Positions 9,813 through 64,000 are shown, counted from the first letter of the stretch. The stretch is DNA of 64,000 nucleotides from Blastocatellia bacterium (GCA_035649735.1 DASRIZ010000243.1:19034-83033), one strand, 5' to 3'. Notes: generated from the sequence alone by a model not told the origin. Program-made: numbers and translations.

Positions 9813-9814
9813 CG

Positions 9815-11860: not shown

Positions 11861-11920
11861 GAACAGCCCGCGCGACTCGCCGAATAACTCCTCAAGCTCA
11901 TCGAACTCACGGCTATTTTC

Positions 11921-14817: not shown

Positions 14818-14939
14818 GGCGTCGCCGACTCCTGGGAGCGCCGACATCCTGCCTGGCTTATCTCGCCATAAACATCTTCGCTAGATCAACAGTGCCAAGC
14901 AGCACGCAGGATGCCGGCGCTCGCTCCCCCAGGGATCCC

Positions 14940-15518
14940 TTATTGACCGGGACCAGTGCAGGCCCCCGGTTCTGCATGCGGGATAGAGCTAAGGTATGTG
15001 TAGATCGCAAGAATGTCGCGGTCGGTCATATTCCTAAAAATCGGCCAGGGCATCACTTGCAATATCTCGTCAGGATCGTCGGGGTCGTGGCCGGTTCGGA
15101 TCAGTTCGAGATACTCTTCGAAGTCCAATCCGGCCGGTTTTCCGTTCGCATCCGGCGTTATGTTGGCGGAGATGATCGGTCCGAAGGGGACACCTCCAGC
15201 CAGGTAGTTTGTTGCGTTGATCTGGCCATCACCACCCTGAAACGGATTATGTCCGGCTGCATACGTTGGGCACGAATGACAATCAGCGCAGGCGGCCTGC
15301 GCGTTGACAATGTAGCTTCCAAGACCCACCAAATCCCGATCGCGGTTTCGGAAGGTGAGGTTAACCGGGGCAATCTCCAGGCCCTGTTGGATCCTCTTCT
15401 TCTCGGCCTTGGCTCTCTCATCTCCCTGGTCATTGTTTTGGCCAGTCGATGAATTCGTCAGGACGGTAACCAGGACGAATGCCGTTAGAAGGACAGCGAT
15501 CTTCATACTCCGGTTCAT
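14940..15518 (-). CDS. Secreted mono-haem cytochrome c family protein
   Basis: 192 aa. Signal peptide (MKIAVLLTAFVLVTVLT), one CADCH motif, AAGGAGA RBS. Confidence 0.7.
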   Translation of the reverse strand: MNRSMKIAVLLTAFVLVTVLTNSSTGQNNDQGDERAKAEKKRIQQGLEIAPVNLTFRNRDRDLVGLGSYIVNAQAACADCHSCPTYAAGHNPFQGGDGQINATNYLAGGVPFGPIISANITPDANGKPAGLDFEEYLELIRTGHDPDDPDEILQVMPWPIFRNMTDRDILAIYTYLSSIPHAEPGACTGPGQ

Positions 15519-47945: not shown

Positions 47946-48204
47946 GAGTCAGGTATGGTTCAGCGCGACGCAGCAGTGGCCTCTTGTCAGACCATGAGAC
48001 AAGAATGAACCCCGCAACTCGCGGCAGGAGAGCCCGAGATGTCGAAATACGCGTAGCGATTATTTGCTTTTGAGGCTATCATTTCACCCTCGGTTAACCG
48101 TGTGAGTGCCCGCATAGGTTCAACTAAATGAAACTCTAAGAGGCGGCAAGCGTTCTGTCCGACGACCCAAGGCAGACTCTTGAAGAAATGAAGGGGAAGA
48201 AGTC

Positions 48205-49491
48205 TTGACCCACTGGTTCTTCAAAATGGGAAGACGGCGCGCGGCAATCCTCTGTTGCCTCGTACTGCTGGCGTTGTTCGTGCCGGCCTCTTTCGTCATT
48301 AAATCAAACTCTTCAAACGGCAACTCGACGCCGGCACCCGATGTTGTGGCTCTGGACGGGATAACTGGCGAACTCGCCCGGGTTCGCAGAGGTGCGATCG
48401 AAAAGCGGCTTTTGCTGGACGGAGAGCTCCGCGCGGTGTCTTCTCGGACAATTTTTTCCTCGACTTCCGAAGAAGCTAAGATCACTTATCTACCTCCGGA
48501 AGGCAGCCTGGTAAAAGCTGGAGAACGAGTCGTCGAGCTTGATAATTCAACGATTCTCAGCAGGATCACGGATATTGAAGAGCGAATCATCGCCGCCGAA
48601 AACGACATCGACAAGACAAAATCCCAACACGAAGGCGCGCTTCGCGATATGGACGTCGTGTTAAGCAATCTCTGGCTTGTCTATGAACAATCAAAACTCG
48701 ACGTAAACATCCCGGCCAGCGTAGTGCCGCGACGTAAATATCAGGAGAATCAGCTGGCGTTTGACAAAGGTAAGACTGAGTATGACAACCAGCTTGCGAA
48801 GATAGAGCAAAAGAAGAAGGAGCAGGCCGCAGAGCTTCACGTAAAGGTTATTGAAAAAGACAAACTGGGTGTTCGGCTCAACCAGATCAAGGCGAACCTT
48901 GCAAGCATGACTTTGACCGCGCCCGCCGACGGGATGGTGATTTACGGTGACCATTGGATGGAGCGGCGCAAGATTCAAGTCGGGGACATGGTGTGGGGCG
49001 GGTTCCCGCTCGTTAGGCTGCCAGATTTGAAAGAGATGGAAGTGCTCGCTCAGGTAAATGAAGTCGACGGTCCGCGATTGTCGATCGGTCAGAAGGCACT
49101 AGTGAGGCTGGACAGCTACCCCGACACCGAGATAACCGGTTCGGTAAAGAACATCGCTCAGACGGCAATCAAGGCGAGCTGGATGGCCAAAGCCAAGGTC
49201 TTTCTTGTAGTGATCGCGCTCGACAGGACCGTCACCGAAATCATGAAGCCAGGTATGTCAGCCCAGGTCTCACTGGCCATCAACGAACAACCGGCGCTTT
49301 TGCTTGTCCCCCGGTCCTCGGTTCAGTTTGAAGGCGGTTCGGCGCAAGTCATGAGGTTCGAAGGCGACAAAGACAGACGCGCGGTCGCCGTGACCATCCT
49401 GTCGGCGGATCCCCTCCACTATGCGGTCGCGGATGATGGAGTGCTCAAAGAGGGCGATCGGATTCTGACCCGATGGAATCGTGAGGAGTAG
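48205..49491 (+). CDS. HlyD-family periplasmic adaptor (membrane fusion protein), paralog 1
   Basis: 428 aa. N-terminal TM, coiled-coil hairpin, LTAPADGMVIY and barrel motifs. Start TTG 48205 or ATG 48226. Confidence 0.8.
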   Translation: MTHWFFKMGRRRAAILCCLVLLALFVPASFVIKSNSSNGNSTPAPDVVALDGITGELARVRRGAIEKRLLLDGELRAVSSRTIFSSTSEEAKITYLPPEGSLVKAGERVVELDNSTILSRITDIEERIIAAENDIDKTKSQHEGALRDMDVVLSNLWLVYEQSKLDVNIPASVVPRRKYQENQLAFDKGKTEYDNQLAKIEQKKKEQAAELHVKVIEKDKLGVRLNQIKANLASMTLTAPADGMVIYGDHWMERRKIQVGDMVWGGFPLVRLPDLKEMEVLAQVNEVDGPRLSIGQKALVRLDSYPDTEITGSVKNIAQTAIKASWMAKAKVFLVVIALDRTVTEIMKPGMSAQVSLAINEQPALLLVPRSSVQFEGGSAQVMRFEGDKDRRAVAVTILSADPLHYAVADDGVLKEGDRILTRWNREE

Positions 49492-49522
49492 ACGATTGTG
49501 AGGCCGTGAGACGCTACTACGA

Positions 49523-50860
49523 ATGTCTCCGGCAGAGAAAGTTATGAGTGAGACAACGGAACAACCGGGTGACGCAACGCCAAAGGCAAGCTTAAGAATA
49601 AGACTGCAAGCCGGGCTAACAACGCCAGCGGCAAAGCGGTTTGGCCTTGGTTTGGTTGTCTGCGTGGCTCTGGTTGCCGGCTTCTCAGCTTTAAAGGCCG
49701 GCGCTTTCTCGGCCGTTGTGCCCAGAAGCTCGACCGCCGATGAGATCGTTATCGCGGCCCGCTCTATGAGTTTTTGGGTTGATGCAACGGGTACGCTGCG
49801 CGCTTCGTCTGTCCGTAACTTCAGCACACCTCCGCCGTTTGGCGAATACTGGCAATTTCAAATAGTGAGCCTGGCTCCTGAGGGCGGCAATGTAAAAGCC
49901 GGCGATGCTCTGATCAACTTCGATGCCCAGAAGGTGCGCGAGGATCTGCAACGCTATCAGAGCGAGCTCGATCAGGCTAACAAGGAATTGGAGAAGATGA
50001 AGGTTTCGATCGACCTCGAACGCCAGGAGCTTTCGGCGAAGCTTGCCGCCGCGGAGAACAAATACGAGAAGACGAAGTTGAAGCAGGGGGCGGGAGCGGA
50101 CATCGAGGCTTCCAACGTAATTGAAAAGGACAATCTGGCTGTCGAACAGGCAAGGCGGGAAGTGGAAGCGCTAAAGGAACGAATGGAGTGGCACAAAAAG
50201 GCTAGCGACGCTTCCTATAACATCATTGGCACTAGAAAAGCGCGTGCCGAAAACCGTGTAAACGCGATCCAGCGAGGGATGGAAGGTTTTCAAGCCAAGT
50301 CCGATCGCGAGGGCGTGGTCGTCTACAAGGTCAAGTGGAATGGCGAGCGCTTCCGTGTCGGCGAAACGGTCTGGTCAGGCATGCCGATCATTGAGATTCC
50401 CGAGTTGAGCACAATTCTCGGCGAAGCCCTTGTCCCAGAAGTCGACATTGGTAAGGTCAGGATCGGTCAGCACGCCGAAGTGTCAATCGATGCGTTCCCT
50501 GGCCGATCGTTCGCAGGATCGGTGAAGAGCATCGGCACGCTCGTGCGGCCAAAGGCGTGGGACATCCCGAATAAAGTGCTCGACGTGCAGATCGCGCTGG
50601 ATCAGCTCGACGTCACCGTTATGCGGCCTGCGATGAGCATCCGGTTGAAAATCGAAACCAATTCGGTCACCGAGTGCTTCGCGGTTCCGCTCAAAGCGGT
50701 GCTCACGACCGCCGAAGGCGCGGTGGTCAAAGTAAAGTCCGACACCGGGTGGCGGACACAAAAGGTAAAACTGGGCGAATCGAATGGCACCGACATCATT
50801 GTGTCCGAAGGGCTTATGGTCGGAGATCGTGTTGCCGCCGATTTTTTGAAGGCCCGCTGA
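49523..50860 (+). CDS. HlyD-family periplasmic adaptor, paralog 2
   Basis: 445 aa. TM segment, coiled coil (QSELDQANKELEKMK..), and a C-terminal barrel similar to paralogs 1 and 3. Confidence 0.8.
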   Translation: MSPAEKVMSETTEQPGDATPKASLRIRLQAGLTTPAAKRFGLGLVVCVALVAGFSALKAGAFSAVVPRSSTADEIVIAARSMSFWVDATGTLRASSVRNFSTPPPFGEYWQFQIVSLAPEGGNVKAGDALINFDAQKVREDLQRYQSELDQANKELEKMKVSIDLERQELSAKLAAAENKYEKTKLKQGAGADIEASNVIEKDNLAVEQARREVEALKERMEWHKKASDASYNIIGTRKARAENRVNAIQRGMEGFQAKSDREGVVVYKVKWNGERFRVGETVWSGMPIIEIPELSTILGEALVPEVDIGKVRIGQHAEVSIDAFPGRSFAGSVKSIGTLVRPKAWDIPNKVLDVQIALDQLDVTVMRPAMSIRLKIETNSVTECFAVPLKAVLTTAEGAVVKVKSDTGWRTQKVKLGESNGTDIIVSEGLMVGDRVAADFLKAR

Positions 50861-50861
50861 T

Positions 50862-50939
50862 ACGTAGCGTAGACTGTCCAGTCTGCGCAGAGTTCAGGGG
50901 GCGAGCTCCTGCGCGCAGACTGGACAGTCTACGCTACGG
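50862..50939. repeat. Near-perfect 26-28-bp inverted repeat between adaptor genes 2 and 3
   Basis: CGTAGCGTAGACTGTCCAGTCTGCGC (50863-50888) is the exact reverse complement of 50913-50938. Loop of about 18-24 nt. Confidence 0.9.
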
Positions 50940-50946
50940 TAGAAGA

Positions 50947-52242
50947 ATGAAACGCTCATACAAACTCATTCGTCGAACAGTTCTGGCAGCGGTTGTAGTA
51001 CTGGCTACTTCCGGGGCGTTGTTTGGCGGGTATCGCGCCCTGACAGGCTCGGCGCCGGATGTAAGACCGCTGAGTGTGATGCTCCAACCCCAGGATTTCA
51101 CACTTAAGATCTCCGCTAACGGCGAACTGCAGTCAGTCGAGTCGATTGCGGTGGCGGTGCCTCCGGTGCCCGTGCAGCGGCTGCGGATTGGTTGGGCGGT
51201 GCCGGACGGGACTCACGTCAAGAAGGGCGATGTGCTGATCGAATTCGACGCGGATGAATTGAACCTCGAGGTCATGGCGCACCGCTCGGATCTGCAGATG
51301 GCGCTGGAAAAGTTAAATCGCGGCGGGTTGGCCAGTAGTGTTGAGCAGACCGACATTGTTAAAGACAAACGACTCGCCGAACTCGAACTCGAGAAGATCA
51401 TCGAGTTCCTCCCTCAGGACGAGCAGATCTACAAACGGCGCGAAATAATCGAAGGCCAGCTCGACAAGGAATACACTGAAAAGAAGATCGTATTTGCCGA
51501 AGCGCGCCTCGGGCTAAAAGGGAAAGTCTACTCATTGGACGAAGCGATTCTCATGCTCGAACGCGGTCGGGTCACCGCCAACATCGATCGTTACGAGAAA
51601 GCGCTGGCATCCCTCAAACTGGTTTCGCCGGCAAACGGCATCGTGGTCTATAACGACCCCGGGTACTTTTTCGGCGGCTACTCGCTGATGCCCGGCAGAG
51701 TGGTATACGTCGGTATGACCCTGTTCAACCTGGTGAACCCGGACAAGATGGAAGCCAAGTGCTTTGTGCTTGAAAAGGATGCCGGCGAGTTGAAGGCTGA
51801 GCAGACCGTCACGCTCACGCTCGATCCTTATCCCGATGTTGAATTCACCGGCAAGGTCAAGAGCATCGACAAACTCGCCCGTCCGATCGATCGCGAGTCT
51901 CCGGTCAAATACTTCCAAACCATCGTCGCGATCGACAAGACTGACGCCGGACTGATGAAACCGGGCGTCAAGCTCAAAGCTCGGATCCTCGCCGGTGAAC
52001 TGAAAGCGGTGATCGTCATACCACGCAGCGCGGCGGTCAAGAGAGATTCCGGATTCGTTGCCTTTGTTCAAAAGGGACCTCAGTTCGAGGCGTTGCCTGT
52101 AACTTTGGGCCAGGGCGACGCGGCGCAGGTTGTTGTTACAGAAGGTCTTGAGCGCGGTCAGGTGGTTGCGCTCAATCCGCCGGATTTGAAACAGGATTTT
52201 TCTCACAAAGCAAAAAAGTCGGAAGGCGAGAAACCGAAGTAG
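50947..52242 (+). CDS. HlyD-family periplasmic adaptor, paralog 3
   Basis: Start at ATG 50947 (MKRSYKLIRRTVLAAVVVLATSG). The track ORF extends upstream through the inverted repeat, which is unlikely to be coding. 431 aa. Confidence 0.8.
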   Translation: MKRSYKLIRRTVLAAVVVLATSGALFGGYRALTGSAPDVRPLSVMLQPQDFTLKISANGELQSVESIAVAVPPVPVQRLRIGWAVPDGTHVKKGDVLIEFDADELNLEVMAHRSDLQMALEKLNRGGLASSVEQTDIVKDKRLAELELEKIIEFLPQDEQIYKRREIIEGQLDKEYTEKKIVFAEARLGLKGKVYSLDEAILMLERGRVTANIDRYEKALASLKLVSPANGIVVYNDPGYFFGGYSLMPGRVVYVGMTLFNLVNPDKMEAKCFVLEKDAGELKAEQTVTLTLDPYPDVEFTGKVKSIDKLARPIDRESPVKYFQTIVAIDKTDAGLMKPGVKLKARILAGELKAVIVIPRSAAVKRDSGFVAFVQKGPQFEALPVTLGQGDAAQVVVTEGLERGQVVALNPPDLKQDFSHKAKKSEGEKPK

Positions 52243-52258
52243 CAGTACGCTGAAGACC

Positions 52259-53497
52259 ATGAATTACGCAACCGAACTCCAACTCGCTGTAGCGAATCTT
52301 CGGGCTCACAAGCTTCGTTCGTTCCTGACGATGCTCGGGATGATCTTCGGAGTTGGCGCGGTGATTGCGATGCTCTCGATAGGCGCGGGCGCCGAACAGG
52401 AGAGCCTGCGTCTGATCGATACGATGGGATTGCGCAATATTATCGCCAAAGATCGCGAGTTCAAGGACGAAGATCTAAAAAAGGTCCGAGAGAGTTCACT
52501 GGGCCTCTCGACCCGCGACATACAGGCCATATCGGCGGTGACTCCGGACATCGAAAGTTATGCCGCAAAGAAGCGAGTGAAGACGTTTCAGGTTTTCTCC
52601 TTCAAGGGCAAGAGCGACGATTCGTTTGTTGTCGGAGTGACGCCTTCCTACTTCCGGCTTGCTAAGCACAAGCTGGCCGAAGGAAGTTTTTTCGCCGAGC
52701 CGGATGAAAGGGATTTCGAACAGTTTTGCGTGATAGGGTCGCGGGTCAAACAAAAGCTCTTTGGTTATCTATCACCTATCGGTCAGTCAATAAAGATCGA
52801 CAAAATGTGGTTCACGGTGATCGGGGTTTTCGAAGACTCAAACCTCGCAAAGGACGAGTTCGAGGGCGTCAAGATACAGGACTTCAGCAATGACATTTAC
52901 ATCCCGCTGGCGACGGCGCTCAAAAAGTTCGAGCTCAAGCGAATGGAGTCCGAGCTCGATGAAATTATCGTGAGCATGAAGAGCCCCGAAGCGTTGAAGC
53001 CAAGCGCGGTGCTGATCAACGAAGTGCTTACGAACATGCACGGCAAGGCTGAAGACTTCTCGATCATAGTGCCGCGCGAATTGTTTGAGCAGAACCAGCA
53101 GACGCGACGCATCTTCGACATCGTTATGAGCTGCATAGCCGGGATCTCTTTGCTTGTGGGCGGGATCGGTATCATGAACATCATGCTGGCGAGCATCCTT
53201 GAGCGCACTCGCGAGATTGGCGTCCGGCGCGCGGTCGGCGCCCGGCGACGCGATATATGGAAGCAGTTTTTGGTTGAGGCGCTGGCGTTGAGTCTGCTGG
53301 GGGGAATCACCGGCATAGTGTTTGGGTTCGGAGTGTCCCGGATTGTTGCTCTCTATGCCGAGTGGAGCACCGTGGTAACCGGTACGTCCATCGCACTGTC
53401 GTTTGGCGTGTCGGCGGCTGTTGGCTTGATCTTTGGGATATACCCGGCCGTCCGGGCTTCCGGGCTGGATCCGGTCGAAGCCCTGCGGTATGAGTAG
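52259..53497 (+). CDS. MacB/FtsX-type ABC transporter permease (no ATPase domain)
   Basis: 412 aa. N-terminal TM, a large periplasmic domain, then three C-terminal TMs with ERTREIGVRRAVGARRRDI. Confidence 0.88.
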   Translation: MNYATELQLAVANLRAHKLRSFLTMLGMIFGVGAVIAMLSIGAGAEQESLRLIDTMGLRNIIAKDREFKDEDLKKVRESSLGLSTRDIQAISAVTPDIESYAAKKRVKTFQVFSFKGKSDDSFVVGVTPSYFRLAKHKLAEGSFFAEPDERDFEQFCVIGSRVKQKLFGYLSPIGQSIKIDKMWFTVIGVFEDSNLAKDEFEGVKIQDFSNDIYIPLATALKKFELKRMESELDEIIVSMKSPEALKPSAVLINEVLTNMHGKAEDFSIIVPRELFEQNQQTRRIFDIVMSCIAGISLLVGGIGIMNIMLASILERTREIGVRRAVGARRRDIWKQFLVEALALSLLGGITGIVFGFGVSRIVALYAEWSTVVTGTSIALSFGVSAAVGLIFGIYPAVRASGLDPVEALRYE

Positions 53498-55442: not shown

Positions 55443-55694
55443 ATGATGGGGAACGCAGAGACGGCGATGAATCTGATTGGATTGATTCTAATAGCGGCGC
55501 TGAGCGGCGGCATAGTCGCCGTCTCGCTGCGTCTCCGCGCGTCCGCCTCGTCTGGTCGTTTGCGGCTCGACGGCGAACGCCCGCACGAAGATGATCGGAA
55601 TACGAGCGGCCGTTCCGAATGGCTTCAGGATGCGTTCGGCCTCAAAAGCGAAGCCGGAATCTATCGAGCGGTAAAGGATCAGATTGGGCGCTGA
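55443..55694 (+). CDS. Hypothetical small membrane protein
   Basis: 83 aa. One TM (LIGLILIAALSGGIVAVSL). Starts 8 nt after the MFS stop and is followed by a strong terminator. Confidence 0.35.
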   Translation: MMGNAETAMNLIGLILIAALSGGIVAVSLRLRASASSGRLRLDGERPHEDDRNTSGRSEWLQDAFGLKSEAGIYRAVKDQIGR

Positions 55695-55715: not shown

Positions 55716-55751
55716 AAAAGGGCCGCCGGCTTAACGTCCGGCGGCCCTTTT
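55716..55751. terminator. Bidirectional intrinsic terminator
   Basis: AAAA-GGGCCGCCGG-CTTAACGT-CCGGCGGCCC-TTTT, between convergent genes. Confidence 0.75.
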
Positions 55752-55778: not shown

Positions 55779-57872
55779 TTAGTCGCCAAATCCCGCCGGC
55801 GTAACCTCCGGCTGAGGCTTTGAACTCTTCAGCTGAATCTGAACGATCTGAGCTTCCGGCGACGCCGGTTCCTTCAGAACATGCTGTCTGTAGAGCTTGG
55901 CCATTCGGTCATTCTCCTGCTGTTCCTTGATTCGATCACGCTGTTTTCGAAGCTTCTCTTCGCGCGAAGTCTTTGCGATGCCGAGATCGTCGAGATCGTG
56001 TTGAATCTCTTTAGTAACAAGCGCCTCGTTGAGCACCAGGTTGTGTGCAGCGTTTTCCAACGCGACCGACTTGCCGCCCGCAAAGATCTCGTGTCGCCCG
56101 TGTTCTTCGTACCACTTTGTGAGCGTCGCGGTCATATGCATTTTCTCGATGATATTGCGCCAGCCCACCCCGGTGTTGTAAGCGCAGAACGAAATCTCGC
56201 CTTCCTGGGTCGCATACGGGATGATGCACTGCTCAGTGCGGCGGAAGTCATAGTTGAACAGATCCTGGAACCACATCCCGGCGATAAACAGAAAGTTCCA
56301 GCGGTCCGCGCGTCGCCTCTCGACGTCTTCGATAGTGCGGTCGCCGGAAACCTTGCCGTAGTCCTTGCCCGTCGCGCCGAAGGTCTTGTCGAATTTCTTC
56401 AGCAAATCAACGAGCTTGAAGTGAGTCGGCGCCTTGAACGGATCGTAATTCTTCATTAGCGCAAGGGCCATTCCTACGATCGACAACTTCTTGCCGCGCG
56501 CGGCGTCGTTGACTTTCATTATATCCTTGGCCAGTTGCTCGGCGTGCAGGAACGCGGTGACCGGCGCCGCTTCTTTGGTCTCTTTGTCGATCATCACCGC
56601 CATGCCGATTCCGCAGTTTGGATGACACCCGCAGTTGAGCTGGCCCCAATCGTTCTGCGGCCCGTGAACCAGATCGGCCCAATCGGTAAACGTCGCCATG
56701 AACGAAATCGGGAACCAGTCCCGAATCGGCTCGCCCAGCCCGGTCTGAGTCTTCACATCATGAGCCATGTGCGAGAGGGTGTATCGTTGTGCTTGCCGGC
56801 GCTCGTCGGTTATCTCTTCGTCGCGCCCGGTGAACGACACCGGCTGAAACGAGAGAAAGTTGATCTTCTTCGGGTTGTCGAGCGCGAACTGAATGATGCG
56901 GCCCACTTGTTCGTTGTTGATGCCGTTGATAATCGTGGTGACCGGGACGATATCCACACCGGCGTTGTGCAGATTCTCGATCGCGCGGAGTTTTACGTCA
57001 AAAAGGTTGCCGACCTTTCGGTGTTCATTTGCGGCATTGCCGATTCCATCGAATTGCAAATAAGCGAAACGCAGCCCGGCTTCCGCTGCTTGTTTGCAGA
57101 ACTCGGGACTCTTGGCAAACTCGATGCCGTTGGTTGCGGCCTGAACGCTGTTGTAGCCGACCTCGCGAGCATATCGAACGGCATCCAGAAAGAACGGGGA
57201 CATGGTCGGCTCGCCGCCCGAGAACTGAACCGACATCTGGCGGCGAGGTTTTATGGAAATCGCGTTGTCCAGCAGTGTCTTGATGTCCTCCCAGGTGAGC
57301 TCGTGAACGAATCCGACCTGGTTGGCGTCCATGAAACAAGGATCGCACATCATATTGCACCGGTTGGTGAGATCGATGGTCAACACCGAGCCGCGCCCGT
57401 GCTTGATTGTGCTTGTTCCGTGTTTGTGAAGTTTTTCGTCGTTGTGCGCGCGAATATCTCGCCCGGGAAAGACCTCTTCAAGGTGTTTGAAAAACTCGGG
57501 GTCATTCGACATTACATCTTCAAAGTGACCATGTTTCTCGCAATCCTTGACCATCAGAATTTTGCCGTCGCGCTCGATTATCTGAGCCTTGATTTCGCCG
57601 ACCTTTTCGTTGAGCAATATTTCGTGAGGCAGCTTTCCGTCGACGATCTGCTGGCGTATTTCAGGAATGCATTTCGGGCACAATGAATCAGTGGTCCGCG
57701 GCCAGCCAAGTGGCGGTTTCGTCTTCTGATAAGACTTCAACAGCGGCTTATCAGACCATCTCGGCGTGAAGGAAGGGTTAGGTTTGATGCGGTTGAGCCG
57801 TTCGAAAACTGCCCATCCGCCGCGCGCGATATAAGTCAATCCCTTCTCCGCGTACTTCACAGGTTTATGCAT
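55779..57872 (-). CDS. Radical SAM protein, tetraether lipid synthase (Tes / GDGT-MAS)-like
   Basis: 697 aa. N-terminal CPKC...CEKHGH metal site, CNMMCDPC radical SAM motif, SVQFSGGEPT, LQFDG, SFQPVSFTGR, CGCHPNC, and C-terminal FQDLFNYDFRRTEQCIIPYATQEGEISFCAYNTG. The order and spelling of these blocks match my memory of Methanocaldococcus MJ0619-type proteins. AGGAGA RBS. Confidence 0.75.
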   Translation of the reverse strand: MHKPVKYAEKGLTYIARGGWAVFERLNRIKPNPSFTPRWSDKPLLKSYQKTKPPLGWPRTTDSLCPKCIPEIRQQIVDGKLPHEILLNEKVGEIKAQIIERDGKILMVKDCEKHGHFEDVMSNDPEFFKHLEEVFPGRDIRAHNDEKLHKHGTSTIKHGRGSVLTIDLTNRCNMMCDPCFMDANQVGFVHELTWEDIKTLLDNAISIKPRRQMSVQFSGGEPTMSPFFLDAVRYAREVGYNSVQAATNGIEFAKSPEFCKQAAEAGLRFAYLQFDGIGNAANEHRKVGNLFDVKLRAIENLHNAGVDIVPVTTIINGINNEQVGRIIQFALDNPKKINFLSFQPVSFTGRDEEITDERRQAQRYTLSHMAHDVKTQTGLGEPIRDWFPISFMATFTDWADLVHGPQNDWGQLNCGCHPNCGIGMAVMIDKETKEAAPVTAFLHAEQLAKDIMKVNDAARGKKLSIVGMALALMKNYDPFKAPTHFKLVDLLKKFDKTFGATGKDYGKVSGDRTIEDVERRRADRWNFLFIAGMWFQDLFNYDFRRTEQCIIPYATQEGEISFCAYNTGVGWRNIIEKMHMTATLTKWYEEHGRHEIFAGGKSVALENAAHNLVLNEALVTKEIQHDLDDLGIAKTSREEKLRKQRDRIKEQQENDRMAKLYRQHVLKEPASPEAQIVQIQLKSSKPQPEVTPAGFGD

Positions 57873-58021
57873 TTGTCTTTTCTCCTCGTGTGCGAAGCTT
57901 CATAGAATCCCACCACCTCGCAAACATTGTTGTTCATTTGCGCCGCATATGCCGGCGGTTGTTTCATTGCTTTGAATGCCCGGAGTGCTCAACCGGGCCA
58001 CCTATAAAAATCAACCTTCGG

Positions 58022-59053
58022 CTAGGCCTTTTCAGTTTGCTCGATTTGATAAACCGTCTTTATCGCCTGTACTGACTCGCGGCGGACCGCGCCTTTCGCT
58101 GCAAGCGTTTGCGGATCGCGCCAGTTGTCGAACGTCGCGACCTGATGTACGCAGGCGATCGTGCAATAAGGCGCACACGCCTTCTTCGTCAGGTACTCCC
58201 TACGAATATCCTCTTTTGTATAGCTAGTGAGAGGGACGCCAGGGTAGCCGCGTTGTTGCGAGCAGTAGTGTACAAGCCCGTCTTCGCAAATGTAAAGATA
58301 GCGAGCGCCGGCACGGCAGCGCCACTGATTTGGCTTACCGTCTACAAGGTTCTTCTGAAAACTGTTCCACCTGACGTGCCCCTTCTTGCCCAGGTCCTTC
58401 ATCTGAAAGTAAACATCACGCTCGACGCCCTTTAGCGGTTTGAGCGTTCCGAGTCCGTCGTGAATGATCCCCAATGAGCTCGAGTGGCCAAGTTCGACCG
58501 CGCGCCGACCGATAGTCCGGGCGTCTTCGGGGGTCTTTATGCCCCCTCCAATCACCGAGTTTATGTTCACCCTGAATTCGGCCAGTTCCGAAAGCCAGAC
58601 GAGCTTCTTGTCCAACACCTTGAGGCTCTTTTTGGAAACATCGTCGGGTTGTACGTTGTCAATGCTGATCTGCATGTACTCGAGACCGGCTCTATTCAAA
58701 TTCTTGATTTTCTCTTTTGTAAGCAGGTACCCGTTGGTGATCAGACAGGCCAGCATCCCTCGTTTGCGGATTCTGCCGACGATCTCCTCGATGTGCGGAT
58801 GCATCAACGGTTCGCCCCCGCTGATTATGATTGCCGTTGTTCCCAGATCCGCGAGTTTATCCAGCCGCTCGAACATCATTTCTCGAGGCACGGGTTTCGA
58901 AACGTCATCATATTCGTTGCAATAAGAACAAGATAGATTGCAGCGGCGCATTGGAATAATGTGCGCAAGGATCGGATGGTTCGTCGACGCCAGGCCCTTG
59001 GCCATGAACCTGTATGCGCGAAAATACATTTTTACTCGACTTGTTAGCTTCAT
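58022..59053 (-). CDS. Radical SAM protein with SPASM/twitch-like C-terminal Cys cluster
   Basis: 343 aa. [16 protein letters not shown], and C-terminal [30 protein letters not shown]. Confidence 0.8.
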
Positions 59054-59466
59054 ATGAAACTGTGATTGAATAAAGGTAAAGCAGCCTTCTCAGGGTCGGC
59101 CAACTGATAAAGTCCATACGAAGGCGTGATTAATGAACTGAGCAATTGATATACCCTCCACTCCCTGAACCCGCTTCTGCCGCTAAGTCCCTGCAGTTCA
59201 ACGATATATCCAATCAGTCAACTGGCAAACTGCGGAGCCTGTTACGCACAAATCAAGTTTTGACTCATTACCCGAAATGGCTATGTGAGCCTCTGCGGCC
59301 TAATGACTCAGCTCGGTCCAAGAGCCCGTGTTGCCTGTCATTTTGACCCGACTGGGTATCGGCGGGCGGGCTGAACCGTTCGAGACGCGCTCGCCCGACA
59401 CAAATTCACACGTTTTTTGTGAGCTTATGGTTGGAGCCTGGGTGATCGATCTAGCCCGAAGTCGTG

Positions 59467-61347
59467 CTAGTCATCCGCCACGCTTTCGGTAAACGTGCGT
59501 TTGTAGTCCTGATAGAACTGCAACTGATAAAGTCGCCAATAGAGCCCGCGCTGTGCGAGCAGGTCCTGGTGGGTGCCCGTCTCGCGTATTTCGCCTTTGT
59601 GCATCACGATTATTTTGTCTACGGATTGAATCGTGGACAGCCGATGGGCGACCACAATCGACGTGCGGCCTTCCATCAAACGTTCAACTGCATCCCGAAT
59701 GAGCAGCTCGGTTTCAGTATCGATCGAACTCGTCGCCTCATCGAGAATCAGGACGCGAGGATCAAACGCCAGCGCGCGTGCGAAGCTGATGAGTTGTTTC
59801 TGGCCAACCGACAACCCTGCTCCCCGCTCGCGTAATTCGGCGCCATATCCTTCGGGCAGTCTTTGGATGAACGTATCCGCGTGAACCTGGCGAGCGGCGT
59901 CGCGTAACCCGGCGTCACTGATTGAGCGATTGCCTAATCGAATGTTTGTTGCGATGTCCCCCGAAAACAGAAACACATCCTGTAGCACGATGCTGAAGTT
60001 CGCCCGCAATTCTTCGAGATTCAGCTCGCGCACGTCCACGCCGTCAAGGAGAATCTGCCCGCGTTGAATGTCATAGAATCTCAACAGAAGGTTGGTGATC
60101 GTGGTCTTACCGGCTCCCGTGTGGCCGACGAATGCGACCCGCTCGCCTGGTTCGACGGTAAACGACACATCTTTTAATATCCAATCTTCGTCGTGATAGG
60201 CAAACCAGACGTTCCGGAACTCTATGTGACCGCGTGCGCGTCCTATGCTCACCGGTTTTTCCGGGGATGAAATGGTGATCGGTTCGTCGAGCAGTTTGAA
60301 GATTCGCTCCGATGACGCCATCGCCGATTGTAGAATGTTGTACTTCTCGCTTATGTCGGAAATCGGCTCGTAGAACATTCTCGCCAGCTGGATGAACGCT
60401 ACGAGCGTACCGATCGTCGCTGTTCCGCGGATAACTTCGCCCCCGCCGTACCAGATAATCAGTCCGATACCGATTGACCCAATGATCTCGACCGCCGGGT
60501 AGAACACCGCGTAATAAAAAATCGTTTCGATGTTTGCCTTACGATGGGCCTGGTTGATGTCGTCGAACTTGCGCAGCTCCTTTTCTTCGCGGTTGAACAA
60601 TTGAACGACCGGCATTCCGGTGATGTGCTCCTGCAGAAACGCGTTGATGCGTGCGATGCGCACCCGGACCTCGCGGAACGACGATCGGGCCCCGCGTCTG
60701 AACCAGCTGGTGAGTCCGGCCAACAGAGGCAGGATCGCGAAAGAAACAAGTGCCAGCTTCCAGTTCTCGACAAACATCCAAATCACGATGAAGAAGATCA
60801 TGGCCACGTCGCCGAAGATCGCTATCACACCGGCGGTGAACATCTCGTTTAGCGCGTCGACATCGGTTGTCAGTCGGGTCATCAGCCTGCCGACCGGGTT
60901 GCGATCGTAGAACTGGACCGGCAGTTTTTGCAGATACGCAAATATCTGTTTGCGCAGGTCGTACATTATGTACTGTCCCATCGTCTGCATAACGATGGCC
61001 TGGGTGTACTGAACCGCGAACGCAGCAACACTGGCGAGCAAGAATATGATCGAGATAAAAACGATCCCCTGATAAGCGCTTTCGCCGAAACCAAATCGAC
61101 CGGCGAGCTGCTTCAAAAAGAGCGCGAAGCCAGACGCGGGTTTTCCCGGATCGGGTGCAAGAAATAAATCGATGGCCGCTTTTGTTAGAGGCGGTCCGGC
61201 AAGAACCAACGGCGCGCTGAGAACGGTGAGCACCAGCGACGTCAAAGCATACGATTTGTACGGCCACAAATAGGTGAGCAGCCGGCGCATTAGCCGAGCG
61301 TCGTACGCTTTGCCGAGAACCTCTTCTTCGTGATGCGATTCCGCCAT
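59467..61347 (-). CDS. ABC exporter half-transporter (TMD-NBD), consensus Walker B / degenerate signature
   Basis: 626 aa. Six TM segments. Walker [10 protein letters not shown], signature LSVGQ, Walker [11 protein letters not shown]. Confidence 0.92.
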
Positions 61348-61469
61348 GATAGGGGATAGGGGATAGGTTATAGGGGACAGGTTACAGGCAACACAGGCGA
61401 GAGGTTACAGGTGACCTGTAACCTATTCCCTGTAACCTGTAACCTATCCCCTGTAATCTGTAACCTATC
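61348..61469. repeat. Heptamer-armed long hairpin (AGGGGAT/AGGTTAC units) between the two ABC genes
   Basis: Left arm 61348-61412, right arm 61414-61469. The centre is AGGTTACAGGT-G-ACCTGTAACCT. Confidence 0.9.
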
Positions 61470-61474
61470 ATTTC

Positions 61475-63217
61475 TCAACTCGCCGCAAGCTCTTCTTCCA
61501 ACAGCTGCTTCTCGTACAACTCGGCGTAAAGCCCTCCGCTGGCAATCAATGAATCATGAGTGCCGCGTTCGGAGATTCGCCCGTCGTCGAGTACCACGAT
61601 CAAGTCCGCATCCTTGACCGTCGATACTCGATGCGACACGATCAAGCTCGTACGGCCGCTCATGATGTTTCGCAGGTGCCCGAGTATCTTCTCCTCCGTG
61701 TATGTGTCCACCGACGACAGCGCGTCATCCAGAATCAGAATTCGAGGCCTTCGAATCAATGCGCGGGCGATTGCTGTGCGTTGCTTTTGCCCGCCTGAGA
61801 GAGTGATACCCCGTTCGCCAACCAGGGTTTCGAATCCTTCGGGGAACTCGCGGATGTCATCCGCTATTCCGGCTTCGATCGCCGCTCGCTCGATGTCATC
61901 GGCGCTCGCGTGCTCGACCCCGAACGCGATGTTTTCGGCGATGGTTTCGCTGAACAGGAACGTCTCCTGAGGCACATAGCCGATCGACGTTCGCAAAACC
62001 GACAGCGGGATCTCGCGGATAGACTTGCCGTCTATGAGCACCTGTCCCTCCTCGGCCTCGAGCAGCCGGGTGACCAGGTTCATCAGCGTCGATTTCCCGG
62101 ACCCGACTCCGCCGACGAAGGCGACCGTCTGACCGGCATCGATATGAAGGTTGATGCCTTTTAAAGCCGGGTCGCGCGCCTCACCGTAGGTAAGGGTCAG
62201 ATCGCGGAACTCAATCTCGCCGCGAATCGCGTCGATTCCGCTAGCGCGATCGGCGTCCCTGATTGCCGGCTCGATTGACATGATGTGATGCATGCGTCCC
62301 ATCGAAGCCATGCCTCGCTGGAAGATATTTATCACCCAACCGAGAGCGATCATCGGCCACACCAGCAGACCGAGATACAGAGTGAACTGAACGAACTCGC
62401 CGATAGATATCGTTCCGCTGATGACCAGATGCCCGCCGTACCACAGGACTGCGATGAACCCAAGACCGATAAAGAACTGCAGGATCGGGTGAAAAATCCC
62501 AGACAGCCTTATGAGCTGCAGATTACGATCGACGAACTCCCGGTTGACCTGTTTGAAGCTCTCTATCTCCGCTTCTTCCTGGGTGTAGGCCCGAATTACC
62601 CGCACGCCCGCGAGCGATTCCTGCGCGCGGTTTGAAACCGTTCCGAAGTACTCCTGGACCTTCTCGAACCGATCGTGTATCCGCTTAGAAAAGTAATTAG
62701 TGGCAGTGACAACGAGCGGCATTGACAGGAATGCAAGCAGCGTTAGTCGCCAGTTTATGGAAGCCATCAGCGGGATCAACAACGCCATCGCGAAAATCGT
62801 GTTCATCGAATACATTAACGCAGGCCCGACGATCATCCTCACTGCCGACAGATCGTTGGTTGCGCGTGCCATCAAATCACCTGTTCGATGCGTTTGATAA
62901 AACTCGAATGGAAGTTTTTGGAGGTGTTCGTAGAAATCGTTCCGCAAATCGTACTCGATGTTTCGCGACATATTGATGAGCAGACGTCTCTGGGTGAACA
63001 GAAAAACGCCCTGGACGAGCGCGATCGAAATCAGCAACCCGGCGTAAAGAAGAAGCTCCGACTCGACGACTTCGGTTGCGAGGTCGTCAACCGCGTGACG
63101 GAGAACAAGCGGGGCGGCCACCTTTACCACGTTGGTCAAGAGGACGCAGGCTGAGCCGATGATCAGAATGCGCTTGTAGGGAGTGAAGTAGCTTAGAAGC
63201 TTGCGAAACGGACTCAT
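61475..63217 (-). CDS. ABC exporter half-transporter (TMD-NBD), Walker B Asp variant / consensus signature
   Basis: 580 aa. Walker A GGVGSGKST, signature LSGGQ, Walker B ILILDDALSS (Asp in place of the catalytic Glu). Confidence 0.92.
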   Translation of the reverse strand: MSPFRKLLSYFTPYKRILIIGSACVLLTNVVKVAAPLVLRHAVDDLATEVVESELLLYAGLLISIALVQGVFLFTQRRLLINMSRNIEYDLRNDFYEHLQKLPFEFYQTHRTGDLMARATNDLSAVRMIVGPALMYSMNTIFAMALLIPLMASINWRLTLLAFLSMPLVVTATNYFSKRIHDRFEKVQEYFGTVSNRAQESLAGVRVIRAYTQEEAEIESFKQVNREFVDRNLQLIRLSGIFHPILQFFIGLGFIAVLWYGGHLVISGTISIGEFVQFTLYLGLLVWPMIALGWVINIFQRGMASMGRMHHIMSIEPAIRDADRASGIDAIRGEIEFRDLTLTYGEARDPALKGINLHIDAGQTVAFVGGVGSGKSTLMNLVTRLLEAEEGQVLIDGKSIREIPLSVLRTSIGYVPQETFLFSETIAENIAFGVEHASADDIERAAIEAGIADDIREFPEGFETLVGERGITLSGGQKQRTAIARALIRRPRILILDDALSSVDTYTEEKILGHLRNIMSGRTSLIVSHRVSTVKDADLIVVLDDGRISERGTHDSLIASGGLYAELYEKQLLEEELAAS

Positions 63218-63229
63218 AACTACTCTACG

Positions 63230-63652
63230 CTACTTCCTTTCGTTGAGTCGCATATAAGTGAGGAGACCCTTGGCCGCGAGCTGACCCGATGAATCGATGA
63301 GGTCGCATTCAGCCACGACGATTCGCCGGCCGTCGCGAATCAGCCTTGCGTCGGCGATCACCCGGCCTTCACGTATTGCGCTGAGATAGTTCACCTTCAT
63401 CTCTATCGTCGTGAACCGGGCATTTGGTTCGGATGCGCCAACAATTGCAAAGGCTACCGCGGTATCAATCAATGTTGCGATCGCGCCGCCGTGCATGATA
63501 CCCGCGAGCTGGAGGTGCTGTTGCTTTACCTCGAGACTCAGTCGCGCGCGTCCGTTCTCAATTGAATCCAGCTCGATTCCAAGAGAACGCGGGAAGTGGT
63601 TCGTTTCGAACTTGTCTCGTATAAGTTGTAGTTTTTCCGGAGTAATTTCCAT
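63230..63652 (-). CDS. PaaI-family hotdog-fold thioesterase
   Basis: 140 aa. GIMHGGAIATLIDTAVAFA motif. 12 nt upstream of the ABC gene. Confidence 0.8.
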   Translation of the reverse strand: MEITPEKLQLIRDKFETNHFPRSLGIELDSIENGRARLSLEVKQQHLQLAGIMHGGAIATLIDTAVAFAIVGASEPNARFTTIEMKVNYLSAIREGRVIADARLIRDGRRIVVAECDLIDSSGQLAAKGLLTYMRLNERK

Positions 63653-63656: not shown

Positions 63657-64000
63657 CTATTTCTTCCTGGCGGTTATCTTTTTCGCTGCCGACACGCGTC
63701 CCGCCGCTTTCGAGTGCGCGCCGATCTTGTTTGTTTTCAAAGTGTTGAGTTTCGCTTGCGCAGTCCGCTGCCGGGGGGACCACTGATAAACACTCAAATC
63801 ACAGTGGCCGCGCGCATCAAATACAACCCCTTCCGCTTCCAGCATCAATCGTTGCCGATCGGGTTCGGCAAGGATCACCCGTCCAGTAGACACCGAGCCT
63901 CGCGAATTGATGACCCGATGCCACGGGATGTTGCGCTCATCGCGCGGCGTCGCGTGCATTGCCCATCCGACAAGCCTGGGACTGTAGCGCTCCTCGAGGA
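63657..64000 (-). CDS. Alkyltransferase-like (ATL) protein of the MGMT family, 5' end outside the window
   Basis: The frame stays open to the window edge (..EERYSPRLVGWAMHATPRDERNIPWHRVINSRG). PWHRV replaces the PCHRV active site. Lys/Ala-rich basic tail. Confidence 0.75.
   Translation of the reverse strand, partial: LEERYSPRLVGWAMHATPRDERNIPWHRVINSRGSVSTGRVILAEPDRQRLMLEAEGVVFDARGHCDLSVYQWSPRQRTAQAKLNTLKTNKIGAHSKAAGRVSAAKKITARKK

What the first reader, a model, noticed from the sequence alone, without database searches (positions are those of the whole stretch)
55779..63652. Candidate membrane-spanning-lipid module: thioesterase + asymmetric ABC exporter pair + SPASM radical SAM + Tes/GDGT-MAS-like radical SAM
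Seen: six minus-strand genes lie in a row.
- A PaaI thioesterase.
- Two ABC half-transporters, separated by a heptamer hairpin.
- A 413-nt gap.
- A 343-aa radical SAM/SPASM protein.
- A 697-aa radical SAM protein. Its motif series (CPKC..CEKHGH, CNMMCDPC, SFQPVSFTGR, CGCHPNC, FNYDFRRTEQCIIPYAT..FCAYNTG) matches my memory of the archaeal tetraether synthase Tes / GDGT-MAS family (MJ0619-type).
- The cluster ends at a strong bidirectional terminator.

Knowledge:
- That family couples two lipid tails tail-to-tail.
- Acidobacteria make iso-diabolic-acid-based membrane-spanning lipids and branched tetraethers.
- Bacterial Tes homologues have been proposed, but to my knowledge not firmly shown, to be responsible.

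Inference: this cluster could encode tail-coupling, a second radical modification step, acyl release and lipid flipping or export. The gene neighbourhood, rather than the Tes homologue alone, is the potentially undescribed part.
Basis: partly seen in the sequence, partly recalled or inferred. Interest (0 to 1): 0.68.

Follow-up and report, generated by a model that had tools for sequence, protein, structure and literature searches.

The report
Acidobacterial Tes-like lipid-coupling gene pair
The region holds a two-gene radical-SAM unit whose large gene is a distinct relative of the archaeal enzyme that joins two lipid tails, so it is a good candidate for making the membrane-spanning lipids of Acidobacteria; the neighbouring ABC transporter and thioesterase genes are chance neighbours, not part of a lipid module.

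Summary
All the described genes and hairpins are present. The window comes from a Blastocatellia (Acidobacteriota) genome.

**Tes homology.** The 697-aa protein ("TesL") is a true homologue of Tes/GDGT-MAS (PDB 7TOL, E=2.6e-65, 33% identity).
- It lacks the N-terminal [4Fe-4S] motif.
- It scores below NCBI's Tes cut-off (327 against 450 bits).
- The clade is 76-85% identical across Blastocatellia, Terriglobia, Bryobacterales and Vicinamibacterales.

**Five-gene module: not supported.**
- The ABC pair and thioesterase flank TesL only in one 96%-identical relative.
- They are absent at 95%, 92%, 86% and 85% identity and from 78 other Acidobacteriota loci.

**What is conserved.**
- Only the 343-aa radical-SAM gene plus TesL stay together in Blastocatellia.
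- They share a conserved sigma-54-type promoter with three upstream repeat sites inside the 413-nt gap.
- Elsewhere both genes are conserved but unlinked.

[quoted passage not shown] The 343-aa enzyme's reaction is unknown.

Acidobacterial Tes homologues were already proposed in the literature, so this is a variant of a known kind. Interest is moderate.

The parts
55716..55751 (.). Bidirectional intrinsic terminator that ends TesL on the minus strand and the MFS/small-ORF unit on the plus strand.
   Evidence: The stem GGGCCGCCGG/CCGGCGGCCC is flanked by an A run and a T run. It folds at -31.9 and -33.1 kcal/mol on the two strands, z -6.0 and -5.8.
55779..57872 (-). TesL: a 697-aa Tes/GDGT-MAS-family radical SAM protein of a clade that lacks the N-terminal auxiliary [4Fe-4S] site.
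   Evidence: NCBIfam NF045702 (Tes) gives 327 bits, E=1.7e-97, over profile positions 2-483 of 486, below the 450-bit cut-off. PDB 7TOL matches at E=2.6e-65. Ligand mapping: C65/C68/C111/H114; C172/C176/C179; C420/C549/C563 plus M533. The positions of MJ0619 C73/C77/C80 are K147/H151/S154.
57873..58021 (-). 149-nt spacer between the two radical SAM genes, with no terminator.
   Evidence: Folding is not different from shuffled sequence (z=-1.4). A GGAG ribosome-binding site precedes the TesL ATG.
58022..59053 (-). rSAM343: a 343-aa radical SAM protein with a Cys-rich C-terminal domain and an unknown reaction.
   Evidence: Pfam finds Radical_SAM and Fer4_12 only. Invariant Cys are C38/C42/C45 and C246/C256/C264/C293/C297/C301. 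The AF2 model has pLDDT 73; its nearest structures are SkfB, PqqE, MoaA and BlsE.
59141..59156 (-). Candidate sigma-54 promoter (GGGTATATCAATTGCT; -24 GG and -12 TTGC with the correct spacing), about 100 nt upstream of the rSAM343 ATG.
   Evidence: GG-N8-TTGC[AT] occurs at -91 to -106 in 11 of 11 Blastocatellia loci and in 0 of 11 on the reverse strand. The base rate is 11 matches in 128 kb. GG and TTGC stay fixed while the bases between them vary.
59257..59350 (-). Three conserved TG[AT]GTCAWWW-type sites spaced 40 and 43 nt apart (the first is the palindrome GTCAAAATGAC): a candidate enhancer-binding-protein region.
   Evidence: The sites are conserved in loci whose upstream genes differ. 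Coordinates were checked.
59467..61347 (-). ABC half-transporter of 626 aa (catalytic Glu present, degenerate signature LSVGQ). A neighbouring, separate unit.
   Evidence: Pfam finds ABC_membrane and ABC_tran. NCBIfam MsbA and SmdB-like hits are below their cut-offs. It is not conserved next to TesL.
61346..61474 (.). Heptamer-repeat palindrome between the ABC genes.
   Evidence: It is absent from the corresponding spacer of L082.
61475..63217 (-). ABC half-transporter of 580 aa (Walker B ...LDD, signature LSGGQ), partner of the 626-aa protein. A neighbouring, separate unit.
   Evidence: The best NCBIfam hit is SmdA at 464 bits, below the 845-bit cut-off.
63230..63652 (-). Hotdog-fold (PaaI/YdiI-type) thioesterase of 140 aa. 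A neighbouring, separate unit.
   Evidence: Pfam 4HBT; TIGR00369 at 89 bits, above its 36.6-bit cut-off.
63657..64000 (-). 3' part of an O6-alkylguanine-DNA methyltransferase-type gene, cut by the window end.
   Evidence: Pfam DNA_binding_1, C-terminal part. The L082 orthologue is 181 aa and is preceded by a DinB gene.

Best explanation
The region contains two unrelated transcription units.

**Unit 1 (63.9 to 59.5 kb, minus strand).** A DNA-repair methyltransferase gene, a hotdog thioesterase and a heterodimeric ABC exporter with one degenerate ATP site (SmdAB/MdlAB-like). This is a lineage-specific neighbour.

**Unit 2 (59.35 to 55.7 kb).** This is the conserved feature. It comprises:
- a sigma-54-type promoter with three upstream repeat sites;
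- a 343-aa radical SAM gene (rSAM343);
- a 697-aa Tes/GDGT-MAS-family radical SAM gene (TesL);
- a strong terminator.

**Proposed mechanism for TesL (inferred from GDGT-MAS, not shown here).**
- It most likely joins the terminal carbons of two iso-branched acyl chains of membrane phospholipids.
- The steps would follow GDGT-MAS:
  - SAM is cleaved at the C172/C176/C179 cluster.
  - Hydrogen is abstracted from a terminal methyl.
  - The substrate radical is captured on a sulfide of the C-terminal auxiliary cluster (C420/C549/C563, M533).
  - A second SAM-dependent hydrogen abstraction is followed by C-C bond formation.

**Clade.** TesL belongs to an acidobacterial clade that has lost the N-terminal auxiliary cluster of archaeal Tes.

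**rSAM343.** It is probably a functional partner or a second lipid-tail-modifying enzyme, but its reaction is unknown.
For: **Shown**
- Homology to the solved enzyme and retention of the catalytic ligands.
- Metal-site definitions and mechanism come from PMC9433317.
- The organism is Blastocatellia.
- TesL orthologues at 76-85% identity occur in Blastocatellia, Terriglobia, Bryobacterales and Vicinamibacterales. The Terriglobia include Acidipila rosea, Granulicella aggregans, Tunturiibacter psychrotolerans and an Edaphobacter MAG.
- These classes correspond (my mapping of class names to subdivisions) to subdivisions 1, 3, 4 and 6, which are the reported iso-diabolic-acid producers. Acidobacteria lack Mss (PMC13159169).
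- GDGT-MAS itself binds ester-linked E. coli phospholipids.
- rSAM343 and TesL are adjacent in all 11 Blastocatellia-type loci where the downstream sequence was present, with varied flanks.
- The pair is also adjacent in L002 and L091, and in swapped order in the subdivision-1 MAG locus L053.
- There is no terminator between the two genes.
- The promoter and repeat-site architecture is conserved.
- The ABC and thioesterase block is not conserved.

**Inferred:** the substrate, the product and the mechanism.
Against: - No activity data exist for this clade in the literature I could read.
- TesL scores below the curated Tes cut-off, whereas archaeal-type paralogues in some Acidobacteriaceae pass it at 578-589 bits.
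- Those paralogues coexist with TesL 2-8 kb away. This suggests the two types are not redundant, so TesL might do something else.
- rSAM343 and TesL are unlinked in most Acidobacteriota.
- The TesL structure model failed.
- The sigma-54 assignment rests on sequence pattern only. No rpoN or enhancer-binding-protein gene was found in the window.
Confidence: 0.55

Rival explanations
1. One reading: all five genes form one membrane-spanning-lipid module. In it, the two radical SAM enzymes couple and modify tails, the thioesterase releases acyl chains, and the ABC pair flips or exports the lipid.
For: All genes are on the same strand and adjacent in the window and in L082. MsbA-like ABC exporters can flip lipids (NCBIfam similarity).
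Against: - The ABC and thioesterase block is absent beside the pair at 95%, 92%, 86% and 85% TesL identity and in 78 other loci.
- In L083 and L001 the upstream genes are the same TPR and M14-peptidase genes, which suggests that arrangement is ancestral.
- The block is tightly packed with DNA-repair genes (MGMT, DinB).
- A conserved promoter region separates it from the radical SAM pair.
Confidence: 0.05
2. TesL is a neofunctionalised Tes relative that carries out a different radical reaction. It might act on another lipid or on a non-lipid substrate. In this model iso-diabolic acid is made by the archaeal-type Tes paralogue or by an unknown enzyme.
For: - TesL is below the Tes equivalog cut-off and has lost one metal site.
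- It coexists with an archaeal-type Tes in L021, L038 and L047.
- It has N- and C-terminal extensions and a rubredoxin insertion.
- Garcia et al. counted only bacterial sequences that branch within the archaeal part of the tree as true Tes.
Against: - The catalytic C-terminal cluster ligands, including the labile Met, and the radical SAM site are retained.
- The archaeal-type Tes was reported in only 3 of 14 iso-diabolic-acid producers, whereas TesL is found across the producing classes.
- The role of the lost N-terminal cluster is unknown even in GDGT-MAS.
Confidence: 0.3
3. rSAM343 is functionally unrelated to TesL. Their adjacency in Blastocatellia is inherited gene order without shared function.
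For: - The two genes are unlinked in Terriglobia and other soil Acidobacteriota. There, rSAM343 sits beside an Asp/Glu racemase gene, DinB and amino-acid permease genes.
- TesL has varied neighbours in those groups.
- rSAM343 shows no similarity to any known lipid enzyme beyond generic radical SAM hits.
Against: - The adjacency persists while both flanks change.
- It recurs in more distant loci (L002, L091) and in reversed order in L053.
- The genes share one promoter with no terminator between them.
- Both families are unusually conserved across the same phylum.
Confidence: 0.4

Closest known systems
Archaeal tetraether synthase Tes / GDGT-MAS (MJ0619, MA_1486; PDB 7TOL/7TOM; NCBIfam NF045702)
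   Same: - Same superfamily and overall domain order.
- 33% identity over 492 residues.
[quoted passage not shown]
   Different: - No N-terminal auxiliary [4Fe-4S] motif: CPxxCGxCxxH is replaced by HxHG(S/T)S..K.GRG.
- An insertion of about 20 residues in the rubredoxin domain.
- An N-terminal extension of about 60 aa and a charged C-terminal extension of about 110 aa.
- The score is below the curated cut-off (327 against 450).
- The host is bacterial and aerobic, with ester-linked iso-fatty-acid lipids.
Bacterial 'Tes homologues' of Acidobacteria proposed for brGDGT or iso-diabolic acid synthesis (Zeng et al. 2022, PMC8941075)
   Same: - The Edaphobacter aggregans homologue they report (32% identity, E=4e-61 to MA_1486) has the same similarity level as TesL.
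- An Edaphobacter MAG locus here carries a 79% TesL orthologue.
- They put forward the same hypothesis of tail coupling.
   Different: - Their top hits (Koribacter and Solibacter, 40-42%) match the archaeal-type paralogue class. That class is 44% identical to MJ0619, keeps the N-cluster motif and scores 578-589 bits. It does not match TesL.
- The papers I could read do not mention the split into two types, the loss of the N-terminal cluster, or the rSAM343 partner.
Bacterial membrane-spanning lipid synthase Mss (Thermotoga maritima and Thermoanaerobacter ethanolicus; PMC13159169)
   Same: Same proposed chemistry: radical SAM tail-to-tail coupling of fatty acyl chains to diabolic or iso-diabolic acids.
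   Different: - It is a different radical SAM family.
- It is reported absent from Acidobacteria and restricted to anaerobes.
- It was not compared by sequence here.
gms-tes gene clusters of Acidobacteria and Planctomycetes (Garcia et al. 2024, PMC11214058)
   Same: A second radical SAM gene is clustered with a tes-like gene in Acidobacteria.
   Different: - Gms is an AhbD-like SPASM enzyme of more than 420 aa with a COG4001 N-terminal domain of about 100 aa.
- rSAM343 is 343 aa, has only a weak partial AhbD hit (52 bits over residues 36-135) and no Pfam SPASM hit.
- Their tes was restricted to the archaeal-type branch.
Heterodimeric ABC exporters with one degenerate ATP site (SmdAB/MdlAB, TM287/288 type)
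   Same: - Two adjacent half-transporter genes that are 33% identical.
- One has Asp in place of the catalytic Glu; the other has a degenerate signature motif.
- The best NCBIfam model is SmdA.
   Different: - Scores are below all equivalog cut-offs.
- The substrate is unknown.
- No conserved link to the radical SAM genes.

Membership tests
Tes / GDGT-MAS (NF045702; PDB 7TOL) | Significant near-full-length sequence similarity to characterised enzymes | tested here: met
   7TOL matches at E=2.6e-65, query residues 93-588 against chain residues 35-512. The NF045702 profile is covered over positions 2-483 of 486.
Tes / GDGT-MAS (NF045702; PDB 7TOL) | Score at or above the curated equivalog cut-off (450 bits) | tested here: not met
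   TesL scores 327 bits and the Acidipila rosea orthologue 333. Archaeal-type acidobacterial paralogues score 578 and 589.
Tes / GDGT-MAS (NF045702; PDB 7TOL) | Radical SAM CX3CX2C cluster | tested here: met
   C172/C176/C179 align with MJ0619 C98/C102/C105.
Tes / GDGT-MAS (NF045702; PDB 7TOL) | N-terminal rubredoxin-like CX2C...CX2H iron site | tested here: met
   C65, C68, C111 and H114. Pfam Zn_ribbon_HMPTM matches at E=2.9e-12. The spacer is 42 residues instead of 20.
Tes / GDGT-MAS (NF045702; PDB 7TOL) | N-terminal auxiliary [4Fe-4S] cluster (MJ0619 C73, C77, C80 plus His) | tested here: not met
   The aligned residues are K147, H151 and S154, and there is no Cys between residues 112 and 171. 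The same loss is seen in P0241, P0256, P0257, P0273 and P0303.
Tes / GDGT-MAS (NF045702; PDB 7TOL) | C-terminal auxiliary [4Fe-4S] cluster with a labile Met (site of the C-S intermediate) | tested here: met
   C420, C549 and C563 align with MJ0619 C338, C455 and C470. M533 aligns with Met439. That these three MJ0619 Cys are the cluster ligands is my inference; only Met439 is named in the text I read.
Tes / GDGT-MAS (NF045702; PDB 7TOL) | Same three-dimensional architecture with two lipid pockets | tested here: inconclusive
   The AF2 model has pLDDT 44 and pTM 0.38, which is unusable.
Tes / GDGT-MAS (NF045702; PDB 7TOL) | Catalyses terminal C-C coupling of two lipid tails | not testable with these tools
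   This needs expression or an in vitro assay.
Gms / GMGT synthase (candidate identity for rSAM343) | AhbD-like SPASM radical SAM protein of more than 420 aa with a COG4001 N-terminal domain of about 100 aa | tested here: not met
   rSAM343 is 343 aa. The AhbD model gives 52 bits over residues 36-135 only, and there is no SPASM hit at E<=10. No direct Gms sequence was available for comparison.
SPASM/twitch radical SAM subfamily (rSAM343) | C-terminal Cys-rich domain that binds one or two auxiliary clusters | tested here: inconclusive
   There are six invariant Cys in the pattern CX9CX7C...CX3CX3C. Structural neighbours are SkfB, PqqE and SuiB at TM 0.5-0.6. Pfam SPASM is not matched.
Conserved multi-gene lipid module (thioesterase + ABC pair + two radical SAM genes) | Gene neighbourhood conserved across related genomes | tested here: not met
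   The full set is found only in L082 (96% identity). It is absent in L083, L084, L085, L001, L003, L086, L088 and L089 and in 78 other loci.
Heterodimeric ABC exporter with a degenerate site (SmdAB/MdlAB-like) | Two adjacent half-transporters, one with a non-catalytic Walker B residue and the partner with a degenerate signature | tested here: met
   ILILDD with LSGGQ in the 580-aa protein; LILDE with LSVGQ in the 626-aa protein. SmdA scores 464 bits, below the 845-bit cut-off, so it is not an equivalog.
Sigma-54-dependent promoter | -24 GG and -12 TTGC elements with fixed spacing, conserved among relatives, with upstream activator sites | tested here: met
   The motif is present in 11 of 11 loci at -91 to -106, and three repeat sites lie 110-195 nt upstream of it. 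Dependence on RpoN and the identity of the activator were not tested.

The most novel reading that the evidence does not exclude
The clade of Tes-like enzymes that lacks the N-terminal cluster (TesL) is the long-sought iso-diabolic-acid (membrane-spanning lipid) synthase of aerobic Acidobacteriota.
- It would be distinct from the archaeal-type Tes found in a few species.
- The co-conserved rSAM343 would be its partner or a second tail-modifying enzyme.
- In Blastocatellia the pair would be switched on through a sigma-54 enhancer, so that membrane-spanning-lipid content is under signal control.
Probability: 0.25. Interest if true: 0.8.

Novelty: new variant of a known kind. Interest (0 to 1): 0.45.

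Why it matters
Branched tetraethers and their iso-diabolic-acid precursors underpin widely used palaeo-temperature and pH proxies. The acidobacterial enzyme that joins the two tails is still not established:
- Mss is absent from Acidobacteria.
- "Tes homologues" were reported in only 3 of 14 producers under stringent criteria.

This work adds four things.
- It separates two acidobacterial Tes types.
- It shows that the divergent type is the one spread, at about 80% identity, across the iso-diabolic-acid-producing classes.
- It names a conserved partner gene and a regulatory region.
- It removes the ABC and thioesterase genes from consideration.

Together these give a short, directly testable gene list (TesL with or without rSAM343) for expression and lipid analysis. 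They also give a better marker than archaeal-Tes BLAST thresholds for surveying potential producers in metagenomes.

Tried and rejected
- **TesL structure.** The AF2 model built from a shallow alignment (83-96% identity) gave pLDDT 44. It was not used and no fold search was run.
- **5' UTR stem upstream of rSAM343.** It looked covarying by eye. RNAalifold found only 4 pairs at -1.8 kcal/mol with one compensatory pair, so I dropped it as a structural claim.
- **Rfam.** There were no hits at gathering thresholds over the whole window and none at E<=1 over 57800-59500. No known riboswitch or sRNA lies in the gap.
- **rSAM343 as Gms, Mss or a B12 methylase/desaturase.** Its size and domain content do not fit.
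- **Shared promoter motifs in Terriglobia.** I searched upstream of the unlinked TesL and rSAM343 genes. The motif occurred in 4 of 71 and 1 of 77 loci, the same as the reverse-strand control. This gives no evidence of a common regulon there.
- **Cultured-species names for rSAM343 relatives.** The top 120 hits were all metagenomic or MAG sequences.
- **Supplementary tables** of PMC13159169 and PMC11214058 are not held.
- **Chen et al. 2025 (Geochim Cosmochim Acta)** is cited as linking Tes to iso-diabolic tetraesters in Koribacter. It is not held, so I could not check which Tes type it concerns or how it was tested.
- **Promoter/terminator scan.** It gave counts no different from shuffled sequence and missed the real terminator.

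Full report
**1. What is there**

The five minus-strand ORFs are present at the stated coordinates.

| Coordinates | Product | Evidence |
|---|---|---|
| 63652-63230 | hotdog-fold thioesterase, 140 aa | |
| 63217-61475 | ABC half-transporter, 580 aa | |
| 61347-59467 | ABC half-transporter, 626 aa | |
| 59053-58022 | radical SAM protein, 343 aa (rSAM343) | |
| 57872-55779 | radical SAM protein, 697 aa (TesL) | |

- The "sixth" gene is the 3' part of an O6-alkylguanine methyltransferase-type gene, cut by the window end.
- The two ABC proteins are 33% identical.
- They form a classic asymmetric pair:
  - The 580-aa protein has ILILDD (no catalytic Glu) and LSGGQ.
  - The 626-aa protein has LILDE and a degenerate LSVGQ.
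  - The best NCBIfam models are SmdA and MsbA, all below their cut-offs.
- The heptamer palindrome between the ABC genes is real: 43-nt arms, -68 kcal/mol, z=-9.
- The palindrome is unique in the window and absent from the same spacer in the closest relative.
- The terminator at 55716-55751 is strong on both strands.

**2. The 697-aa protein (TesL)**

It is a genuine Tes/GDGT-MAS homologue.
- NCBIfam NF045702 gives E=1.7e-97 over almost the whole profile.
- PDB 7TOL gives E=2.6e-65.
- It is 33% identical to MJ0619 over 492 residues.

I mapped the metal ligands defined by Lloyd et al. (PMC9433317) onto TesL.

| Site in GDGT-MAS (MJ0619) | TesL residues | Status |
|---|---|---|
| Rubredoxin-like site | C65/C68/C111/H114 | kept |
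| Radical SAM cluster | C172/C176/C179 | kept |
| C-terminal auxiliary cluster (forms the C-S intermediate) | C420/C549/C563, plus M533 at the Met439 position | kept |
| N-terminal auxiliary cluster (C73/C77/C80 + His) | K147/H151/S154 | lost |

- That MJ0619 C338, C455 and C470 are the C-terminal cluster ligands is my inference. Only Met439 is named in the text I read.
- TesL scores 327 bits, below the curated 450-bit cut-off.
- Archaeal-type paralogues in some Acidobacteriaceae MAGs behave differently:
  - They keep the CPDDCGLC motif.
  - They are 44% identical to MJ0619.
  - They score 578-589 bits.
- Acidobacteria therefore have two Tes types, and this window carries the divergent one. 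No second Tes is present in the window.

**3. Distribution**

- The closest database proteins are from Blastocatellia.
- A scan of species-representative genomes matched at least 600 stretches.
- The best 80 are all Acidobacteriota: Blastocatellia, Terriglobia, Bryobacterales and Vicinamibacterales.
- The Terriglobia include Acidipila rosea, Granulicella aggregans, Tunturiibacter psychrotolerans and an Edaphobacter MAG.
- Identity over the full length is 76-85%.
- These classes correspond (my mapping of class names to subdivisions) to subdivisions 1, 3, 4 and 6, the groups reported to make iso-diabolic acid. Mss is reported absent from them (PMC13159169).
- The next relatives drop to 63% and then to 44% or below.

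**4. Neighbourhood**

| Locus | TesL identity | Genes upstream of the pair |
|---|---|---|
| L082 | 96% | same as the window: DinB, methyltransferase, thioesterase, ABC, ABC |
| L083 | 95% | TPR and M14 peptidase |
| L084 | 92% | FG-GAP/ASPIC genes |
| L085 | 86% | FGE-sulfatase and others |
| L001 | 85% | TPR and M14 peptidase |

- In every locus in the table, rSAM343 lies directly upstream of TesL.
- L003 (85%) has the same rSAM343-TesL pair. Its flanks were not annotated gene by gene, but no ABC or thioesterase homologue lies within 10 kb.
- None of 78 further Acidobacteriota loci has an ABC exporter or a thioesterase homologue within 10 kb.

The rSAM343-TesL pair is more stable.
- It is adjacent in every Blastocatellia-type locus that has enough sequence.
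- It is also adjacent in L002 and L091, and in reversed order in the subdivision-1 MAG locus L053.
- In most Terriglobia and Bryobacterales the two genes are both present in the phylum but unlinked. rSAM343 relatives there are 60-69% identical.

**5. The 413-nt gap**

Alignment of the region upstream of rSAM343 from loci with different upstream genes shows conserved blocks.
- Three TG[AT]GTCAWWW sites lie at -297, -257 and -214 from the ATG.
- At about -100 lies GG-N8-TTGC[AT], which has the spacing of a sigma-54 -24/-12 promoter.
- That motif is present in 11 of 11 loci on the coding strand and in 0 of 11 on the other strand.
- The base rate is 11 matches in 128 kb.
- GG and TTGC stay fixed while the bases between them vary.
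- No terminator lies between rSAM343 and TesL.

I read this as an enhancer-dependent promoter driving a two-gene operon, independent of the ABC genes. This is a sequence-pattern inference. No activator or rpoN gene is in the window.

**6. rSAM343**

- Only generic radical SAM hits were found.
- Pfam SPASM is not matched even at E<=10.
- Six C-terminal Cys are invariant.
- A moderate AF2 model (pLDDT 73) resembles SkfB, PqqE, MoaA and BlsE.
- It is not Gms-like.
- It is not a B12 enzyme of the kind recently tied to archaeal lipid methylation and desaturation.
- Its reaction is unknown.

**7. Literature position**

- Zeng et al. proposed acidobacterial Tes homologues for brGDGT synthesis. They list an E. 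aggregans homologue at 32% identity, which is the TesL level, and Koribacter and Solibacter homologues at 40-42%, which is the archaeal-type level.
- Sahonero-Canavesi et al. found Tes in 3 of 14 producers using E<=1e-50 and at least 30% identity. TesL sits on the edge of those thresholds.
- Garcia et al. counted only bacterial sequences inside the archaeal branch as true Tes.
- A 2025 paper states that the bacterial function is not experimentally confirmed.
- A 2026 review reports no experiment on bacterial Tes homologues.
- A 2026 paper cites Chen et al. 2025 as linking Tes to iso-diabolic tetraesters in Koribacter. I could not read that paper.

**8. Verdict**

- The Tes resemblance is real.
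- The module is not.
- The conserved object is a sigma-54-type promoter, rSAM343 and TesL.
- TesL as the iso-diabolic-acid synthase is the best-supported reading (about 0.55 overall). The main rival is that this divergent clade does something else (about 0.3).
- The kind is known. The variant, the partner gene and the regulatory region are, as far as I could find, undescribed.

Noticed in passing
window 61346-61474: A palindrome built from GGTTACA-type heptamers lies between the two ABC genes (hairpin -68 kcal/mol, z=-9). It is unique in the window and absent from the same spacer of the 96%-identical relative L082, so it looks like a recent insertion or a small repeat element.
   Followed up: partly
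L021:18163-19872, L038:14337-16019, L047 about 13660-15144: Some Acidobacteriaceae MAGs carry an archaeal-type Tes (CPDDCGLC N-cluster motif, 44% identical to MJ0619, NF045702 578-589 bits) 2-8 kb downstream of their TesL orthologue. Two Tes types therefore coexist in one genome.
   Followed up: partly
P0257 (Terriglobus roseus WP_014786616.1): A 624-aa TesL-clade paralogue (40% identity) lacks the N-terminal cluster and also all three C-terminal auxiliary-cluster Cys. It may be a degenerate or repurposed copy.
   Followed up: no
All TesL loci L001-L089: TesL is 76-85% identical between acidobacterial classes, whereas archaeal-type Tes sequences are 38-57% identical to one another. This degree of conservation is unexplained.
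   Followed up: no
L167:1-3356 (relative P0241, 63% identity): A branched-chain 2-oxoacid dehydrogenase operon (E1 alpha, E1 beta, E2), the source of iso-fatty-acid primers, lies 6.6 kb upstream of this more distant TesL. This is a single case and may be coincidence.
   Followed up: no
window 46737-53497 compared with L084:12481-14941: An unknown 402-aa gene, three tandem HlyD-type membrane-fusion genes and a MacB/FtsX permease sit between the MFS gene and rplM-rpsI in the window. This block is missing in L084, where the MFS gene is next to rplM.
   Followed up: partly
window 55443-55694 (+): An 83-aa ORF with one predicted hydrophobic helix lies downstream of the MFS gene. Genes of 84-90 aa are called at the same place in L082-L084.
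   Followed up: no
window 20543-21562 (+): Another stand-alone radical SAM gene of 339 aa has only a generic Pfam hit. BLAST shows no similarity to rSAM343 or TesL at E<=1e-3.
   Followed up: no
window 12871-14817 (+): A 648-aa ankyrin-repeat protein has a weak hit to the squalene-hopene cyclase N-terminal domain (E=1.3e-6, no stretch passing on its own).
   Followed up: no
window 76-9029: A kdpABC potassium-pump operon is followed by an OmpL-like porin gene and a KdpDE-like two-component pair. Succinate dehydrogenase/fumarate reductase genes follow at 9066-12598. This is ordinary housekeeping context.
   Followed up: no
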